In this document: piece after piece, positions 1 to 45,828 of the stretch | Layout of the letters: every line of letters begins with the position of its first letter | Position numbering within the stretch: the first letter of the stretch is position 1 | Origin: Flectonema sp. DT1601 | Taxonomy: Eukaryota | DNA length: 64,000 nt | Direction: 5' to 3' | Assembly: GCA_964019425.1 (NCBI GenBank) | Contig: OZ025781.1 | Coordinates: 930,001-994,000, forward strand | The notes under the pieces: model-generated | What the model saw: only the letters and a program-made list of their open reading frames with translations | Told to the model about the DNA's origin: nothing | The model's database searches: none | Made by a program: the position numbers and the translations under genes

Positions 1-1256
1 CTGTTTGTTCTCTTGAGGGAACTGAACACAGCCCGGGCTTCTTCCTGCGAGAAAGGACTACACTCCGGAGTTTCATAGTCACCAGGTTTTACCTTTGGAG
101 CTTCTGGCCTAGTACTGTCAGAGCCGCTTGGGAAGAAACGGCTTATAAGCGACGTCATTGGAGCTCGTGGTGTTGGAAGTGCCGTCTTATCACCCCTGAG
201 TTCCCGTATTTTTCTGTAGGTCCACGAGAAGCCCTTATCACAACCTTGGGAGGCTACTTGGCTGGGGGATAGAGGAGCTAGGATACGTTCCCTTCCCTTG
301 TGTCGAGGCTTGCACCACTTGTTGGGTAGCTTGGCGATTGCTACTTTTTCTACCGTATGGACAAAGTTGTTTGAGAGTTTCTTCAAGGATTTTATCTTTA
401 ATAGTCGTGTTGTGTGTGATTCCAATGTATCAGAAAAGGCTGTCCAGTGTGCATCTTGGAACTGATTGAGGAGCCATTTGCGGTGTGGTGGTGAGTTGCT
501 AAAGTTTGAGAAAGTCGTGATATCGAAGTCCGCTAAGATAGGTGTATGATCCGACATTAGTGCGTCAGGGTCATATTGGCAAACGCTCAGACATTTATGC
601 TGAGGAGAGTGTAAGACCAGATCGGGGGTTGTACCGTGTTTCGGAATCGTCGGTTTGAGCTGAACTAACTCCAATCCGTTGTCATTTATCCAGTCAAAGA
701 CCGTTGAGCCTGCTGATTTTGTAGGGACTTTCTGTGACCAGGATTCATGATGGGCGTTAAAGTCACCAAAAGCCATGTCACCTAGATCGTATGATGATGG
801 AAGGCGTGAAACACCGGGTGGAATATATATATTCTTAAAAGTTATGGAACCTATTGTTGAAGCGAGGCTGAATTCCAGCGCCTCAATGTCGGAGGATCCA
901 GATGATACGTCGTTGTTGTGAGAGATCTTTAAACCATTTCTGAAATACGTCAGTAGGCCACCACCCCGGCTCTTGGAGACTGTCTTCCTGTCTCTCCTAA
1001 TGTACGAGTACCCATCCATATGTAAAAGATCACTGTTGTTCTCATTCAGCCAGGTCTCCTGCAGGTTTATTATATCAGGGTTTGTTGCGTTAACGATGGA
1101 CTCTAAGGCTGCTCTAGTGTTAGTAAGCGACCTTAGATTCCAGGATAAAATTCTCAGAGGACCCGGGTTTTGTTCTATCCCCGATCGGATTAAGAGCTGC
1201 CTCGCGGTGACCGTCAGATGGAAATCCCTGCTGGGATGTGGTTGGGGATGTCGTTG
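1..1256 (-). CDS. LINE ORF2: 2A-like leader, APE endonuclease, linker and start of the RT region (partial)
   Basis: Manual translation shows no stop from 1256 to 1: LRILSWNLRSL..PDIINLQETWL..RRDR..RGGG..NIYIPP..GDFNAHH..TPDLV..SDHTPI (APE motifs), ending SPFSQEEARAVFSSLK (pre-RT motif). First ATG is at 1019, downstream of the QET motif. Not in the ORF track. Confidence 0.92.
1158..1256 (-). other. 2A-like (StopGo/ribosomal skipping) peptide
   Basis: QRHPQPHPSRDFHLTVTARQLLIRSGIEQNPG/P directly before the APE domain. Same position as the trypanosomatid L1Tc 2A (..LLLSGDIEQNPGP) and nearly the same motif, but without the Asp. Confidence 0.8.
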
Positions 1257-3299
1257 CTATTGCTTTGACATAGAACTCCGGTGAGGCGTCCTACCCCGTG
1301 ATCTGCTGGGGGTATTCGTTCTGTCCCCGTAGGGAGAGAAGGAGTCTTGTAGCTGCTTTGCCACCTCTGATTCCTGTCCCAGGACTGATTTAGACCTGAT
1401 TCTGTTCAGCATCGTCTTGTTGGATGCTTTCTTCGGAGGTGCCTTCGTGACTGGTGCTGTTGTGACTTCAGCAGTTGGAGGCTGTGCCGGCTTACCGTGC
1501 ACCGGAGGTTTCATGTTCTGAGGTGGCACTTCAGTTGTTTCCGCAAGAGGAGACCCTTCCGGCGATGAGGACTGTTGAAGAACAGTGTGTTCGATCGAGA
1601 GTTTCTGCTCGTGCATTTGGTTAAGCCGAGCTAACAACTCCGATATTCTTCGTGACAGGTTAGCCACTTCGTCGGTGAGTCGGGAGTTCTGTTCCTGCAT
1701 TTTAACTTGCTGTTTCAGAAGATCTTGGATGCGAGCGTCTCTGTCTTCTAATGACGCCTGTGTCCGTGCTGACTGGTCCTTCTGTTGTTGATCTTGACGA
1801 GCCATGAGATCCGAGGCCTGTTCTGTTAAGCCCGTCACTTTGTCGGTTAGGTGGCCGTTCTGGACCTGCATCTGTCGCTGTTGTTTGAGAAGTTCTCCGA
1901 TTCGAGTGTCCTTAGCGGAGTCGGATGGGGACGTAGTGTCAGTTGGGGTGCTGTTGTCCGGTGAAGGAGCAGAGTCATCTGGTGAGCTATCATCTATTGT
2001 TGAAGTAGGGAGCGATGGATATTCCGCTTCGTTACGTGGTGGCGGTTCTCGTTTGGACTCTCGGTTTATAGTCAGGAGGCCATGTCCCTTGCAGTGAACG
2101 GTGGAGAAGGTCGGTTCTTCTAGTGATTTCACTACAAAGAAACCTCTGCTACCCTTCTTCCTGTGGTGAGTCGCTGTGTCTACAATCCAACCCTGTCCAC
2201 CTAGAATCTTGATGAGGTCTGTAGTGCTGATCCTATGGAGAGAGGGACCTGTTATGAAGTAGCGGGTACCCGGTGTTGGAGGAGGCATGGCTAGTTGTCC
2301 CAGAGTCTTACGTGTATCTAGTTCCCTTCCCGGGTAAGTAACTAAACCAAGCTTCTTCGTTCCACGAAGAAGGATGACTGCCGCGTCGCAATAATCTGCA
2401 GCCTTGCGGGCAGTATTTAAGTCTGCTGTGTCCAGTCTGATCACGACTGTTTTCGGTAGGTCTTCTTGTATGTGTCTCGAAGCAGAGATAAAGAAGCCCT
2501 TGTGTTCCGCTGGAACGTGCGCTTGCAGGCGGTGAACTGCATCAGTAGGTATACGAAGGTTCACCGATGACACCTTCGGGGTGCGGACTTTAGATGCCCA
2601 TATCTGGTGACGGTCTATGGGAGAGAAAGAGTGGTTCTTCGCAAAGTCGTTGTAGATCTTCAAGGCCGCTGCAGATAGATCCGAGGTTGAGAGTGCTTCG
2701 GTCTCACCGTGTCCAGAGTGGTAGTTCAGTTGAACCACTCCGTTCGATACAGGATCCCCGCCCGAACGGACTAAAAGTTTGGCTATGGAGCCTGAGATTG
2801 TCGTTGCGTAGGCCTTGCGGACTACCGTCTTACCATCTAAGAGCAAAGGTACTTGAATAAGGGTACCTTTACCCGGGTCTTCAGTTGTAATTGCCGTTAA
2901 ACGGCCTGTGTTGCTTCGTCGTTGGAGTTGTGGTATCTGGTCTGTCGGTAACAGAAATACAGCCGAAGCCACTGCAGGGTTGTTGATGACTTCACAGCCA
3001 TCTTTGACCTTAAGGTCCCAATCCTCATCGCGGAGTTGAGCCTTCCCCCACGGTTTTGCTGGTTTTAGTTGTCTGGACACTACTGTTGCCCATGACGAGT
3101 TCTTCTTCGTATCTTCAGAACCCGTCTGCCTCGGTGTTTTCGACTTTGGTCTCGGTGATGGAGCCGTTCTCGGTGGAGCTGCCTTCGGTCTCGACACTGA
3201 TGGCGGCGGAGGTTGCTTGTTCCTGCCATCTTGCGTGTTAGCTACCATGCTTAGCAGGGCGCTTAACAAGGTCTTCAACTGGACCCTCTTCTTTTTCAT
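1257..3299 (-). CDS. LINE ORF1 protein (basic N-terminus, central globular region, duplicated coiled coil)
   Basis: 680-aa ORF upstream of ORF2. Two related heptad segments, DTRIGELLKQQRQMQVQNGHLTDKV and DARIQDLLKQQVKMQEQNSRLTDEV. Ends in TAG in frame with ORF2. Confidence 0.85.
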   Translation of the reverse strand: MKKKRVQLKTLLSALLSMVANTQDGRNKQPPPPSVSRPKAAPPRTAPSPRPKSKTPRQTGSEDTKKNSSWATVVSRQLKPAKPWGKAQLRDEDWDLKVKDGCEVINNPAVASAVFLLPTDQIPQLQRRSNTGRLTAITTEDPGKGTLIQVPLLLDGKTVVRKAYATTISGSIAKLLVRSGGDPVSNGVVQLNYHSGHGETEALSTSDLSAAALKIYNDFAKNHSFSPIDRHQIWASKVRTPKVSSVNLRIPTDAVHRLQAHVPAEHKGFFISASRHIQEDLPKTVVIRLDTADLNTARKAADYCDAAVILLRGTKKLGLVTYPGRELDTRKTLGQLAMPPPTPGTRYFITGPSLHRISTTDLIKILGGQGWIVDTATHHRKKGSRGFFVVKSLEEPTFSTVHCKGHGLLTINRESKREPPPRNEAEYPSLPTSTIDDSSPDDSAPSPDNSTPTDTTSPSDSAKDTRIGELLKQQRQMQVQNGHLTDKVTGLTEQASDLMARQDQQQKDQSARTQASLEDRDARIQDLLKQQVKMQEQNSRLTDEVANLSRRISELLARLNQMHEQKLSIEHTVLQQSSSPEGSPLAETTEVPPQNMKPPVHGKPAQPPTAEVTTAPVTKAPPKKASNKTMLNRIRSKSVLGQESEVAKQLQDSFSPYGDRTNTPSRSRGRTPHRSSMSKQ

Positions 3300-3370
3300 T
3301 GTTTTTTTGGAGATGTTACTGAGGGGAGACGCACCTTACTGCTCTTTCACCGTATTGTTTGGATCGAGAT

Positions 3371-3408
3371 CAATAAAGTACAGAAACTGTAGCTTTAGAA
3401 TCGTTGGT
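3371..3408 (-). other. Retroposed copy of the spliced-leader exon (38 of 39 nt)
   Basis: Minus strand reads ACCAACGATTCTAAAGCTACAGTTTCTGTACTTTATTG. It contains the euglenozoan SL core ACAGTTTCTGTACT.TATTG and a diplonemid-type 5' part. Followed by ATCTC rather than a GT donor, so it is not an SL RNA gene. Confidence 0.92.
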
Positions 3409-3545
3409 GGAGAAGTGATTGAACTTGAGGACAAGAAACGACTTCCAATAGAAGTGACGCTACAAAGTCCTGAAAGATCAAGAGCAGTGATTCGAGAACA
3501 GGAAGTCAAAAAATTATCTCTAATAGTAACAACACTACTAAGACC

Positions 3546-3569
3546 TGAAAGTTAGTTAGTTAGTGAAAG
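3546..3569 (-). mobile_element. Micro-insertion (CTAA)3 flanked by a 6-bp direct repeat CTTTCA
   Basis: Plus strand: tgaaag-ttagttagttag-tgaaag. Sister LRR units read GAY CTT TCA GGW CTT with no insert. It introduces an in-frame TAA. Confidence 0.7.
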
Positions 3570-3595
3570 GTCAAGAGCAGTGATTTGTGAACAGG

Positions 3596-4305
3596 AAAAA
3601 AAAAAAAAAAAATTAACCAGTGTTTAGGGGTTTGAATCCCATGGATCCCGTCGCTCAGGCGGTCCGGTGGAGAACCGGGTAGGGCACTGTGAACGAGTTG
3701 CGGTCCAGGTGGCGTCGGAAGGCCACCGCACCAACAGATTTGTTTCTTCGCACAACAGTAGCTTGGAGACCGTAAGAGACCCAAGGTGGTTCACAACCGC
3801 TCGAACAACCGCGTGTGAAGGAACAAGATTGAAAAGAAAAGAATATAAGAAAAGAAATGCCACACACAAAAAACGACGTAGTAAAGCAGAGAGGTAGGGG
3901 GAGGGATGGCCTCTTTCTCCACACATTGCATGGGAGCTCCCCGAGTAACTCGCGGGGCTGATACTGTTAATACATTTCAGGCGACCTGAACTTATAATCC
4001 CCCCATGCGTGAAAAGACTAAACGGGGGAAGTTTGAAGGAAATGGGGGTAAAGGGAAATCATGCCACTAAGGAAAAAATAAAAACCCGGTGGCCCCTGTG
4101 AGCTCTGGGTGCCTGAGTCTCCCGGGCCGGATCACCTGACCTTCTGCTATGTTGTCCTTTTTTTTTTTTTTAAAGGTTAGGCTACCGGAAAATAAAACGG
4201 GGGTAAAAGAATACACAGCAACAACAATACGTCAGCACTCTAGTTACACACAAGGTGCATCCAGGTAACACCACGAGGAGGCGCGCTATCCGAGTTTCGT
4301 TACCC
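3596..4305 (-). mobile_element. Non-autonomous, non-coding retroelement (SINE/SIDER-like, possibly composite) with a 5' HDV-like ribozyme
   Basis: About 710 bp of non-LRR sequence inside LRR coding sequence. Starts at the ribozyme G1, has an internal A14 (4171-4158) and several GC hairpins, and ends in T17 (minus strand). Flanks are TGTTCACGAATCACT and TGTTCACAAATCACT. Confidence 0.75.
4234..4305 (-). ncRNA. HDV-like self-cleaving ribozyme
   Basis: P1 GGGUAAC/GUUACCU (G1-U wobble), P2 AGCGC/GUGCU, P3 GCC/GGU, L3 UCCUCGU, P1.1 CC/GG, P4 AUGCAC-CUU-GUGUGU, J4/2 AACUAGA containing the candidate catalytic C. The full nested double pseudoknot can be built by hand. Confidence 0.85.
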
Positions 4306-5377
4306 AAGTGATTCGTGAACACTCATACAAGAAATAATCCTTAATAGCTACAACATTATGAAGACATGAAAGGTCAATAGTAATGATTTGTGAACAGGAA
4401 GTCAAAAAATAAAACCCAATAGTGGTAACACTACTAAGTCCTGAAAGATCAAGAGTAGTGATTCGTGTACAGGAAGACAAGAAAAAATCCTCAACAGTGG
4501 TGACACTTTTAAGACCTGAAAGGTTAAGGGAGGTGATTGAACTTGAGGACAAGAAATTACCTCCAATAGTAGTGACGCTACTAAGTTCTGAAAGATCAAG
4601 AGCAGTGATTTGAGAACATTTACGCAAGAAGCCTTGAGATATGACTGTGATGTCGGAATTCGAATTGCGGAAAGATATCTGTAATAATTTAGCATCTAAA
4701 GGCAGCAAATCAGTAAAAGTGAGGCAACCGTCTTCTGAGAATGTAGGGGTGTCCAGATATAATTTCCCGCTGTTGCTTCGAAGCCAACGAAGAAGCCTTT
4801 CCCGCATAGAATCATCAACAAACCAGCATTTACCGAACAAACGAAACCGCTTCTTCCACATTTCCAATTCGCTGTTTGTATCCACTCCGTGATCCGCAAG
4901 CCTCTCAGTTTCACAAAGAATGTCACCAGCAAACGAGAGTTCAACTTCCTCCAGATCGATATCCCACTCCTCAGCCGCCGCCGTCAACACGTCGCTCACA
5001 ATGGAATCAACACTAGCCGTGACTGACACCGCAGGGAGTCCCAAATCTGGGCAAGTTACAGAAATTTGCATTTTGTTGAGTAATCTGCCGAAAAGAAACG
5101 AAGGGGTAACTTGACACTGTGATTAAATATAAGAGGGTGTTAATTATCCAGAAAATGTGTGTCCAAACGTCAAATGATTCCTTCTTTCCTTTTATCGGTG
5201 TATTGTTGGGGTTGTTGTACTTCTCCCTCTCTGATAGCAGCCTTCCCCTGGTTGGAACAACAATAAACTTCTTAATACTAAAATAGGTAAGAGGGTTAAA
5301 CTGAAAAAAGTGACAGAAAATTGGTTGAAACCTTTGACAGTAACAACTTTAATTATTTGTAGTAGTAATTGATAGGC

Positions 5378-5695
5378 CTGGAGCAGGGGGGTTAATTGTT
5401 CGAGTTCGTACGTAAAATACAAATGTTTTGTATCATAAACAACATAACGATAATTTAACATTAGTTCTGAGATACAGTGACTAAAGGTAATGTTAGTGTA
5501 GGTATACACACTGTGATTGACGTAAATACTTTACATTATAATAAATGTTTCTAACTTAGCTGCATACACATCTCTTTTTCCGTGTTGGAGCAGGGGGGAT
5601 GTATGTTCGATTTTGTAAAAATTACAACTGTGTTGTATCATAAAAACATAAAGATAATTTAACATTAGTTTTAAATACAGTGACTAAGGGTGATG
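5378..5695. repeat. Degenerate direct repeat, two copies of about 110 bp, about 207 bp apart
   Basis: tggagcaggggg..tgttcga..ttgtatcataaa..gataatttaacattagtt..atacagtgactaa.ggt.atg at about 5378-5492 and 5585-5695; partial gagcaggggg again near 5908. Confidence 0.7.
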
Positions 5696-44007: not shown

Positions 44008-45601
44008 CTACTTACAAAGTTTGCAAGTTTTCTGACAAAATGACTTCATACCACTCTTGTTTTTAATGCACTCACCCGCAAGTGCCCAGTCAGGACACTT
44101 ATTGGGATATAAATCCTTACATCCTTCTGGTATTGGGTTTACGTCACCTTCTTCTCCATAGTTTGGCGGGACGGACATTTTTGCGACTCCCTGATGCCAC
44201 CATTCAGAAGGATCGATGTCATGAATGACTGCTAGTTCCTTCCATTTATCATCGTAAGGACCTCTACCTGCCCCGTAAGTAACACACCAGTGATCAGTAA
44301 ATGATTGGTGGTTTTGAAGTACTGGATCTAACCTTGAGAACTTCCAATATTGCCACAAAGATCTTTCCTTTCCTAAGCCATACTTTGGGAGTCCTATCGA
44401 CAGGTCGGAATCGGTTGTGTTGATGTCAATTAGTCGAGAACCTGGTTGTCCCGGTTTGGTAATCCCTAATATGTGTTGGATTCTTCTATGAGCTATGTGT
44501 TGGAAATGAGACACTTTCACTCCGTGAGTCTCCATGCGGGGTCCCCTTCTACCATATCTATGATACAATACATTAACACTTGGTGAGTATAAGTCATAGC
44601 CACTAGTCCACAATCGTATTCCAAGAAGTGATTCTTCTCCAAAAAAGAGATACGGCAAGTGGGGATCGAAAGGAACGTCCAATACCTGAATTAGTTTAGT
44701 TATTTTTGTAATTTTCAAACCCGCAAACCCACTTAAAGAAATAAATAACAGAAATACAAACCATACGACCAGGTCCAAAGACGAGTCCAGCACCCAAGTA
44801 TGGCTGAGGTTTTGGGTAGCTTGCACCAACGTAAGTATTCGCCCAGAATGGTCCTGGAAACCCTGCGGTCCAGCCACCATTCTTACCAAGGGCACAGAGA
44901 TAAGCGATTGCAGGAGTTTCTTTTGTTTCATCTTTTTCGTTGATGGCTTGCGGGTATGTTGTTAGAACTGATTTCATGTTACCAGTCTTGTCGTGTTCGT
45001 CAATAATAACTTCATCCCAATTACTAACAAATCTATTATGAGAGTCAATCATCATAAAGTAATCCTCACCTCTATAAAGAAGAGACGCTAAATGCCTTGC
45101 GTAAGTTGGACCTTTCGCATATTCTGATCTAAACGTACGAGATCTGATGTTGTCACTTGGACACCACGATTGTGTTCCACAAGTTTCATCCCATGAAAAG
45201 TGTGGAAGACAGATCTCTTTTTCTTTATTAGGATCAGCCTGACATATTAATCCAACAAAAACCCTTTCAGGTACAGCAGCCTTGGCGAATAGACTATGGA
45301 GAGTAATGTTTGCCTCAACATCTCGAAAAGCCGCGATCGATACGAATATACTTTTAGCTATTGGACTACCCTCAGGGTCACCCTTTGCTTTAGATATAAA
45401 CTCGCCTTGATTATCAGTGAATCCAATTGTTACATTATTAGCATTGTTTTTATTGCATTCAAAGTGTCGGGATACTTTAATATGATGACCAGGTCTCCAC
45501 AAGTCTCTCTTAGACATCGAAACTACCTGCCAGGAAATGAGCAGCGCAGTGAGCGCTAACCCTGCGAATAGTATCTTGCTCATGGGGGTCATTTTCTTCA
45601 T
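44008..45601 (-). CDS. GlcNAc-transferase (Gnt1/OGNT-like) with signal anchor and C-terminal ShKT domain, 2 exons
   Basis: IFVSIAAFRD, AKGPTYARH, MIDSHNRF, VPFDPHLPYLFFGEE..RLWTSGYD; intron 44686-44761; ShKT C.D...CPDWALAGEC..MKSFCQKTCKLC. Confidence 0.88.
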
Positions 45602-45655
45602 TTTTTTTTTTTTTTTTCCCTTAATTCACAACCCCCAACTGATAAGCGAAAAGAA

Positions 45656-45828
<173 letters not shown>

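What the first reader, a model, noticed from the sequence alone, without database searches (positions are those of the whole stretch)
4234..4305. HDV-like ribozyme defining the 5' end of a non-coding insertion
Seen: all five HDV helices form, with the G1-U wobble and an L3 (UCCUCG) matching HDV. The predicted cleavage site (before G4305) is exactly where LRR coding stops (ATC ACT T|GGGTAAC). Known: R2, L1Tc/ingi and SIDER elements use HDV-like ribozymes to cut themselves out of host co-transcripts. Inference: this is a diplonemid ribozyme-headed SINE family. If active it would also cleave the host polycistronic pre-mRNA here. It lies 900 bp from a LINE that defines its 5' end differently, via SL.
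Basis: partly seen in the sequence, partly recalled or inferred. Interest (0 to 1): 0.78.

Follow-up and report, generated by a model that had tools for sequence, protein, structure and literature searches.

The report
Ribozyme-headed insertion in diplonemid LRR gene
A 73-base stretch with the full pairing pattern of a hepatitis-delta-type self-cutting RNA starts exactly where a gene of a diplonemid (a flagellate related to trypanosomes) is broken by foreign DNA, so it is likely the front end of a small jumping element of the kind known from trypanosomes; cutting is untested and only this one copy could be seen.

Summary
Observation confirmed. Minus strand 4305-4233 pairs into all five HDV helices without a mismatch. 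A descriptor finds only this site in the window, and 1 of 3,498 shuffled windows gave a hit as good. G1 lies within one base of where the LRR repeats stop. The host is a diplonemid.

Caveats: J4/2 is one base longer than the usual C-N-R-A, P4 is weak, and Rfam gives only 15.5 bits (cut-off 44). This copy may cut poorly or not at all.

The 'SINE family' is not shown. There is no second copy in the window and none in three public collections; no genome or reads were available. The A14 run 134 bases downstream (about 20% by chance) and a possible 15-bp target duplication (explained by LRR repeats) are inconclusive.

Best reading: the 5' head of a non-autonomous retroposon working like SIDER/NARTc/R2-SIDE, moved by one of six young APE-RT LINE families that appear to share this assembly. 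The neighbouring LINE starts with a spliced-leader relic, not the ribozyme. A known kind of element; two literature searches found no ribozyme report for diplonemids.

The parts
4233..4305 (-). Predicted HDV-like double-pseudoknot ribozyme; predicted cut 5' of G4305; predicted catalytic C4243
   Evidence: weak Rfam RF02682 match
4172..4232 (-). 61-nt U-rich tail after the ribozyme; possible 3' part of a short (134-nt) element. It can pair with the P1 5' strand in the predicted fold, but shuffled tails do so as well
4158..4171 (-). A14 run; candidate poly(A) tail of a short element (weak evidence)
   Evidence: 3,215 of 16,384 non-coding positions have such a run 60-250 nt downstream
3613..4157 (.). 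Segment B: 545 nt of non-coding, GC-rich (0.52) foreign-looking DNA; body of the same element or a second, opposite-strand insertion
   Evidence: GC above all 24 host intergenic stretches, 0.25-0.40; no Pfam match in the frame pieces tested; no tRNA; no second copy
3596..3612 (-). T17 run at the far junction; may be an expanded T-rich stretch of the LRR repeat itself
4306..5071 (-). 5' part of the interrupted host gene: BspA-type leucine-rich-repeat protein; reads on 6 codons into the ribozyme to a stop at 4288-4286
   Evidence: PF13306 E 5e-9
3411..3595 (-). 3' remnant of LRR repeats, with an 18-nt insertion that holds a stop and resembles a host intron 3' end
3372..3410 (-). Spliced-leader-like 5' end of the neighbouring LINE, joined to an LRR repeat at nearly the same register as the ribozyme
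   Evidence: only SL-like match in the window; by eye 16 of 17 bases equal to the published prokinetoplastid SL fragment
1..3371 (-). Neighbouring LINE (cut by the window edge): ORF1, an in-frame stop, a 2A-like motif, then APE endonuclease; the family ORF2 has RT, RNase H and a CCHC motif. Context and candidate helper type, not the proven partner

Best explanation
The 73 bases at 4305-4233 pair into the full HDV-like double pseudoknot and begin exactly where an LRR gene breaks off; they are likely the self-cutting 5' head of a non-autonomous retroposon that a host LINE probably copied into this gene. Inferred cycle: a parent copy lies inside a polycistronic transcript; the ribozyme would cut 5' of G1 and free an RNA with a precise 5' end; an APE-RT LINE protein would reverse-transcribe it at a nicked target (TPRT); a full-length insertion therefore starts at G1, as seen here. 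The most likely unit is the 134 nt from 4305 to 4172 plus the A14 run, with segment B as a second insertion; a single 710-nt unit is the alternative. Shown: the pairing pattern, its coincidence with the break, the foreign base composition, and young LINE families in what appears to be the same assembly. Inferred: cleavage, retrotransposition, the helper LINE, the 3' end and the existence of further copies. This copy has a J4/2 one base longer than standard, so it may cut slowly or be dead; if it cuts, it would sever the host pre-mRNA inside an already broken gene.
For: Mismatch-free pairing of five helices, 1 of 3,498 shuffled windows as good. G1 within one base of the LRR break. Insert GC 0.55 (ribozyme) and 0.52 (segment B), like the LINE (0.50) and above all 24 intergenic stretches; SIDER/RIME are also GC-richer than their genomes (passage). 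Precedent: L1Tc cuts at +1 of the element (passages), as do Drosophila R2 and SIDEs (passages); SIDER/NARTc heads are active in several trypanosomatids (section read). By eye the P3-L3-P3 core equals that of active T. vivax SIDER1 at 11 of 13 bases. Six APE-RT clusters of 10-74 members share contig lengths with each other and with this window's RPN7 contig; four of them, checked by pairwise comparison of full-length members, are 99.2-99.9% identical within the family. An elongated J4/2 can be active (theta ribozyme, passage), and the base after the catalytic C is flipped out to solvent (passage).
Against: One copy only: none elsewhere in the window, 0 matches in metagenome, viral and prokaryote collections, no genome, no reads. 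J4/2 does not fit C-R-R-A; Rfam 15.5 of 44 bits. Predicted nested folds compete: P4 probability about 0.01, and the P1.1 guanines can pair with the catalytic C region. No target-site duplication after the A14 run; the 15-bp, 1-mismatch repeat after T17 is matched as well by two other LRR units. A-runs are common here. The only LINE 5' end in view is SL-like and has no ribozyme. No LINE coding remnant in the insert (best tblastn E 0.009 among 172 proteins, 0.023 among 42 more). None of 80 distant LINE loci showed a convincing ribozyme head (4 hits with C against 4, 6 and 5 with control bases; many of these contigs are too short to hold a 5' end). Active-site sequences converge among HDV-like ribozymes, so the core likeness to Pr77 proves no kinship.
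Confidence: 0.62

Rival explanations
1. It is the 5' end of a full, autonomous ribozyme-headed LINE (ingi/L1Tc-like) whose remainder was lost or displaced here by rearrangement, so there is no separate short family.
For: Single-ORF LINEs with a canonical 2A motif about 30 residues from the N-terminus appear to be in the same assembly (P0057/P0307 cluster, 37 members); this is the layout of Ingi/L1Tc (passages). No clean TSD and no sure poly(A) end. The locus is disordered (LRR remnant, second LINE).
Against: No coding remnant of 214 LINE-like proteins in the 710 nt, although in that family the ORF may start close to the 5' end; an A14 run follows the head after 61 nt.
Confidence: 0.17
2. It is a host 3'-end control element: a ribozyme kept behind the new stop codon of a shortened LRR gene to cut or destabilise the mRNA, as proposed for Leishmania SIDER2 in 3' UTRs.
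For: The LRR frame stays open for 255 codons up to the break and stops 6 codons into the ribozyme; SIDERs in 3' UTRs are linked to mRNA decay.
Against: The predicted cut lies before the stop codon and would leave a non-stop mRNA; the flanking LRR remnant has a stop and a LINE insertion, as in a pseudogene; no ribozyme activity was detected in the SIDER heads of down-regulated mRNAs.
Confidence: 0.06
3. The fold is a chance pattern in a non-coding insertion of another kind (DNA transposon, template jump or intron).
For: The descriptor was tuned to this sequence; J4/2 is non-standard; Rfam score is low; nested energy is ordinary. The host has GT-AG introns, and a GT lies at 4303. Over some 250,000 scanned windows a few hits of this quality are expected by chance.
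Against: 1 of 3,498 shuffles is as good, and the hit also starts within one base of the break on the sense strand. No GT donor between 4319 and 4150 restores the LRR frame with any AG in 3640-3420; the 12 pairs that do use non-consensus donors inside the LRR. No terminal inverted repeats other than the two homopolymers.
Confidence: 0.1

Closest known systems
NARTc, RIME and SIDER1/2: non-autonomous L1Tc/ingi-clade retroposons with the Pr77 (79-bp) HDV-like ribozyme head (PMC4035085, PMC3185411, PMC2323293)
   Same: Euglenozoan host with all genes on one strand; HDV-like fold starting at base +1 of a short non-coding, GC-rich insertion; similar P3/L3 core (11 of 13 bases by eye); APE-RT-RNase H LINEs with 2A-like motifs in the genome.
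   Different: P1 starts with G.U and P1.1 has 2 bp (the Pr77 heads in the supplement start with C, and L1Tc's P1.1 has 1 bp). No likeness in P1 by eye. J4/2 is one base longer. No clear TSD, copy number unknown, partner LINE unknown. The candidate unit (about 150 nt) is shorter than NARTc (0.25 kb).
R2 SIDEs of Drosophila (PMC3414825 abstract start; PMC3774820 and PMC6765202 passages)
   Same: A non-autonomous element reduced to a 5' HDV-like ribozyme plus a short 3' part; cut at the precise 5' junction of a host co-transcript.
   Different: SIDEs sit only in 28S rDNA and use an RLE-type R2 protein; this insertion is in a protein-coding gene and the candidate helpers are APE-type LINEs.
HDV/CPEB3-type and theta ribozymes (PMC6326823, PMC10879173; Rfam RF02682)
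   Same: Five-helix nested double pseudoknot, G1.U, U and C-G positions in L3, 2-bp P1.1, catalytic C in J4/2.
   Different: J4/2 spacing; weak P4; below the Rfam threshold; not next to a tRNA; activity untested.

Membership tests
HDV-like ribozymes | Nested double pseudoknot P1, P1.1, P2, P3 (P4 optional) in the right order | tested here: met
HDV-like ribozymes | G1-Y pair at the cut site, U and C-G in L3, C-G pairs in P1.1 (fixed positions of the descriptor in PMC6326823) | tested here: met
HDV-like ribozymes | J4/2 with catalytic C followed by N-R-A directly before P2 | tested here: inconclusive
   C4243 present, but the junction reads CUAGA: one extra base, or a G at the fourth place. An elongated J4/2 of another pattern is active in a theta ribozyme. 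Two papers that might list such variants were not held
HDV-like ribozymes | Score above the curated threshold of an Rfam HDV-like family | tested here: not met
   RF02682 15.5 bits against 44, E 3.7; none at E<=1
HDV-like ribozymes | Mg-dependent self-cleavage 5' of G1, lost on C-to-U change | not testable with these tools
   needs an in vitro assay
HDV-like ribozymes | Covariation among homologues | not testable with these tools
   no second copy obtained
Trypanosomatid SIDER/NARTc/RIME (L1Tc/ingi clade) | 79-bp (Pr77) signature at the 5' end | tested here: not met
   compared by eye with supplement parts 1-2 of 3 of PMC4035085: core alike, P1, first base and P1.1 differ; no alignment was run
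Trypanosomatid SIDER/NARTc/RIME (L1Tc/ingi clade) | Adenosine-rich 3' end | tested here: inconclusive
   A14 at 4171-4158; 0.196 chance rate; the far end is T17
Trypanosomatid SIDER/NARTc/RIME (L1Tc/ingi clade) | Target-site duplication | tested here: inconclusive
   none after A14; 15 bp with 1 mismatch after T17, equalled by LRR units at 4471 and 3500
Trypanosomatid SIDER/NARTc/RIME (L1Tc/ingi clade) | Ends shared with an autonomous LINE partner | tested here: inconclusive
   the one LINE 5' end in the window is SL-like, not this head; DNA of the other five LINE families could not be fetched
Trypanosomatid SIDER/NARTc/RIME (L1Tc/ingi clade) | Dispersed multicopy family | not testable with these tools
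   no genome held; single copy in 64 kb
Classical SINE (tRNA-, 7SL- or 5S-derived Pol III head) | 5' head derived from a Pol III RNA | tested here: not met
   ARAGORN 0 genes; no tRNA, 5S or SRP match in Rfam at E<=10; the head is the ribozyme fold

The most novel reading that the evidence does not exclude
Diplonemids carry an active family of mini-retroposons headed by an HDV-like ribozyme that is not the trypanosomatid Pr77 head and uses a longer catalytic junction. It rides on LINEs that get their own 5' end by spliced-leader trans-splicing, so two ways of cutting a retroelement out of polycistronic RNA share one enzyme set and one preferred site in LRR repeats.
Probability: 0.2. Interest if true: 0.68.

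Novelty: new member of a known kind. Interest (0 to 1): 0.45.

Why it matters
It would extend ribozyme-headed retroposons from trypanosomatids to diplonemids, and so bear on whether this way of leaving polycistronic RNA predates the split of the two groups or arose twice. Two searches of the held library found no paper on a diplonemid ribozyme (1 unrelated paper with all three terms; 0), and 'ribozyme' does not occur in the main text or in the 7 searched supplementary files of the D. papillatum genome paper. Subscription papers were not searched. A natural five-base J4/2 would be a small, testable variant of the HDV catalytic core. The principle itself is established (L1Tc, SIDER, R2 SIDE), and only one copy is in evidence, which caps the score.

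Tried and rejected
Designed attenuator: the tail pairs with the P1 5' strand once about 105 nt are made, like the L1Tc attenuator, but 500 shuffles of the tail did as well (energy reached by 50%, sequestering by 61%, duplex by 47%). Rejected as a selected feature.

Intron: no consensus donor at or after the junction restores the LRR frame. Excision of 4305-3596 in silico is in frame but meets a stop 11 codons later.

TSD: not separable from LRR repeat likeness.

Second ribozyme in segment B: none by three descriptor settings. tRNA or Rfam identity of B: none. Bacterial promoter/terminator scan: nothing, and not relevant to this host.

Copies elsewhere: 0 in metagenome, viral and prokaryote contigs with one gapped pattern; a diverged family would be missed. 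No look-alike among earlier notes.

Ribozyme heads on distant LINE relatives: background only in 80 loci; Rfam 0 in 20 of these 80.

Clade of the LINEs: no named ingi or L1Tc protein among the listed hits, and the Atlas gave only unnamed RT clusters, so 'ingi-like' rests on domain layout alone. Expression and read support were not obtained.

Full report
Setting. The window is from a diplonemid. Its RPN7 protein is 76% identical to that of Diplonema papillatum and 43-47% to trypanosomatid ones. The ORFs of the recognised genes all lie on the minus strand, as expected for polycistronic transcription (PMC10161547, passages). No whole genome was available and no reads were obtained, so everything about this element rests on one locus.

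The observation. On the minus strand 4305-4233 the five HDV helices pair without a mismatch: P1 7 bp with G1.U, P2 6 bp, P3 3 bp, P1.1 2 bp, P4 6 bp. A descriptor written after seeing the sequence finds this one site in 64 kb. Shuffled windows gave 9 hits in 1,424 (strict) and 44 in 1,159 (loose). A second run gave 28 hits in 3,498, only 1 of them as good on P2 length, L3 G, P1 quality and P4. The positions fixed in a published HDV design descriptor (G1-Y, L3 U and C-G, P1.1) are met. Its J4/2 pattern C-R-R-A is not: here C4243 is followed by UAGA before P2 (passages). Either an extra base is bulged next to the flipped-out position, or the conserved A is replaced. An elongated J4/2 of a different pattern was active in a theta ribozyme (passages), and R2 ribozymes conserve only the catalytic C and four other positions (section read). 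Rfam's nearest model scores 15.5 bits against a cut-off of 44. Nested folding gives z -0.21 and P4 a probability near 0.01. So the pattern is real and beyond chance, but activity of this copy is open.

The junction. The host gene is a BspA-type LRR protein (PF13306) with repeats of 72-75 bp. The last repeat matches five others at 0.70 per base up to 4307 and at 0.18 from 4305 on. G1 is therefore within one base of the break, on the sense strand. This coincidence is independent of the fold statistics and is the main reason to read the fold as the 5' end of an inserted element. In L1Tc and Drosophila R2 the cut is at +1 of the element (passages).

What follows the ribozyme. After 61 U-rich bases comes A14 (4171-4158), then 545 bases (segment B), then T17, then LRR repeats again (3595-3411), then an SL-like stretch and a LINE. 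The ribozyme (GC 0.55) and B (0.52) resemble the LINE (0.50) and exceed all 24 intergenic stretches measured (0.25-0.40). The A14 is weak evidence of a tail: 3,215 of 16,384 non-coding positions have such a run at a similar distance. No duplication follows the A14. After T17 there is a 15-bp repeat of the left flank with one mismatch, but two other LRR units match equally well. The tail can sequester P1 in the predicted fold, but shuffled tails do so too. No splice donor at the junction restores the gene. B matches no tRNA, no Rfam family at threshold, no Pfam family and no LINE protein. The 3' end of the element is thus unresolved: about 150 nt with B as a separate insertion (preferred), or about 710 nt.

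Possible helpers. The neighbouring LINE has ORF1, an in-frame stop, a 2A-like motif and an APE domain. Its family ORF2 adds RT, RNase H and a CCHC motif. Six related clusters (18, 10, 15, 25, 37 and 74 members) share contig lengths with one another and with the contig of this window's RPN7, so they appear to come from the same assembly (inference). Full-length members compared within four families are 99.2-99.9% identical, which points to recent activity. APE-RT-RNase H with an N-terminal 2A is the layout of Ingi/L1Tc (passages), but 2A also occurs in other clades, no named ingi protein was among the listed hits, and no tree was made. The neighbouring LINE starts with the only SL-like sequence in the window (16 of 17 bases equal by eye to a published SL fragment) and has no ribozyme, so it is not shown to be the partner.

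Search for copies. None in the window by blastn and nhmmer. None by one gapped pattern in metagenome, viral or prokaryote contigs. None among earlier notes by sequence or place. Eighty distant LINE loci showed only background descriptor hits (4 with C against 4, 6 and 5 with control bases) and no Rfam hit in the 20 scanned. These negatives mostly reflect the absence of this organism from those collections. They leave 'family' and covariation untested.

Mechanism (committed, 0.62). The fold is the 5' head of a non-autonomous retroposon. It would cut the element out of a host co-transcript at G1, and a LINE RT would copy the freed RNA into a new site, here an LRR gene. Shown: fold pattern, junction, foreign composition, young LINE families. 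Inferred: cleavage, TPRT, helper, 3' end, copies. Rivals: the stranded head of a full LINE (0.17), a chance fold in another kind of insertion (0.10), a host control element (0.06).

Comparison with known systems. It works like NARTc/RIME/SIDER and R2 SIDEs. It is not filed as a member of the Pr77 family. By eye the P3-L3 core matches active T. vivax SIDER1 at 11 of 13 bases, but the first base, P1 and P1.1 differ, and such cores converge. It is not a classical Pol III SINE. Several SIDER heads with adequate folds were inactive in vitro, a warning against reading activity from the fold. Earlier AI notes describe similar ribozyme-headed mini-elements from Vingi LINEs in fish and SL-headed LINEs in Euglena and dinoflagellates; these were not checked and are leads only.

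Papers seen. PMC4035085: abstract, sections 5 and 6, supplement parts 1-2 of 3. PMC3774820: passages and section 16; its supplements could not be read and may list J4/2 variants. PMC9901934: passages and section 7, nothing on this junction. Passages only: PMC3185411, PMC6326823, PMC10879173, PMC4870747, PMC6765202, PMC3708506, PMC2323293, PMC12278014, PMC7859406, PMC4708014. PMC10161547: passages and two term searches of 7 supplementary files. PMC3414825: search listing. PMC3256349 and PMC3308841 were not held. The B-box and stop-readthrough remarks under 'noticed' are recalled motifs.

Verdict. A real, statistically solid HDV-like fold at the exact 5' junction of an insertion; probably a ribozyme-headed retroposon; a known kind of element in a lineage where two searches found no report. 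Family status and activity are unproven. Interest 0.45.

Noticed in passing
window 3410-3372 (-) and LINE 3371-1: An apparently young APE-RT-RNase H LINE begins with a nearly whole spliced-leader sequence, which suggests copying from trans-spliced RNA; whether its 17 cluster relatives do too could not be seen.
   Followed up: partly
window 1259-1257 (-): LINE ORF1 and ORF2 are in one frame, separated by a single TAG followed by CAA (a context recalled from leaky stop read-through), with a 2A-like motif about 25 codons later.
   Followed up: no
window 4306/4305 and about 3411/3410: The ribozyme and the SL-headed LINE join LRR repeats at nearly the same register (within about 4 bases in a 72-75-bp repeat). 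A shared target preference is possible; chance is roughly 1 in 8 by my arithmetic.
   Followed up: partly
window 3613-4157: Segment B is unexplained. On the plus strand its first 75 nt fold as a four-way junction with several G.U pairs (z -0.54) and hold a B-box-like motif (recalled) near 3628-3639; it ends in the T14 that is the ribozyme element's A14. It may be an opposite-strand element.
   Followed up: partly
window 3563-3546 (-): An 18-nt insertion of three CTAA repeats ending in AG resembles the 3' end of a host intron seen near 44690; it could act as a trans-splice acceptor.
   Followed up: partly
window 27411-27384 and 44961-44696 (-): The ribonucleotide reductase and GlcNAc-transferase genes are split by what look like short GT-AG introns.
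   Followed up: partly
window 5379-5492 and 5586-5695: A 115-bp direct repeat (83% identical) in the intergenic DNA upstream of the LRR gene.
   Followed up: no
window 45655-45828: A tandem array with a 6-bp period, about 174 bp long, followed by a T run.
   Followed up: no
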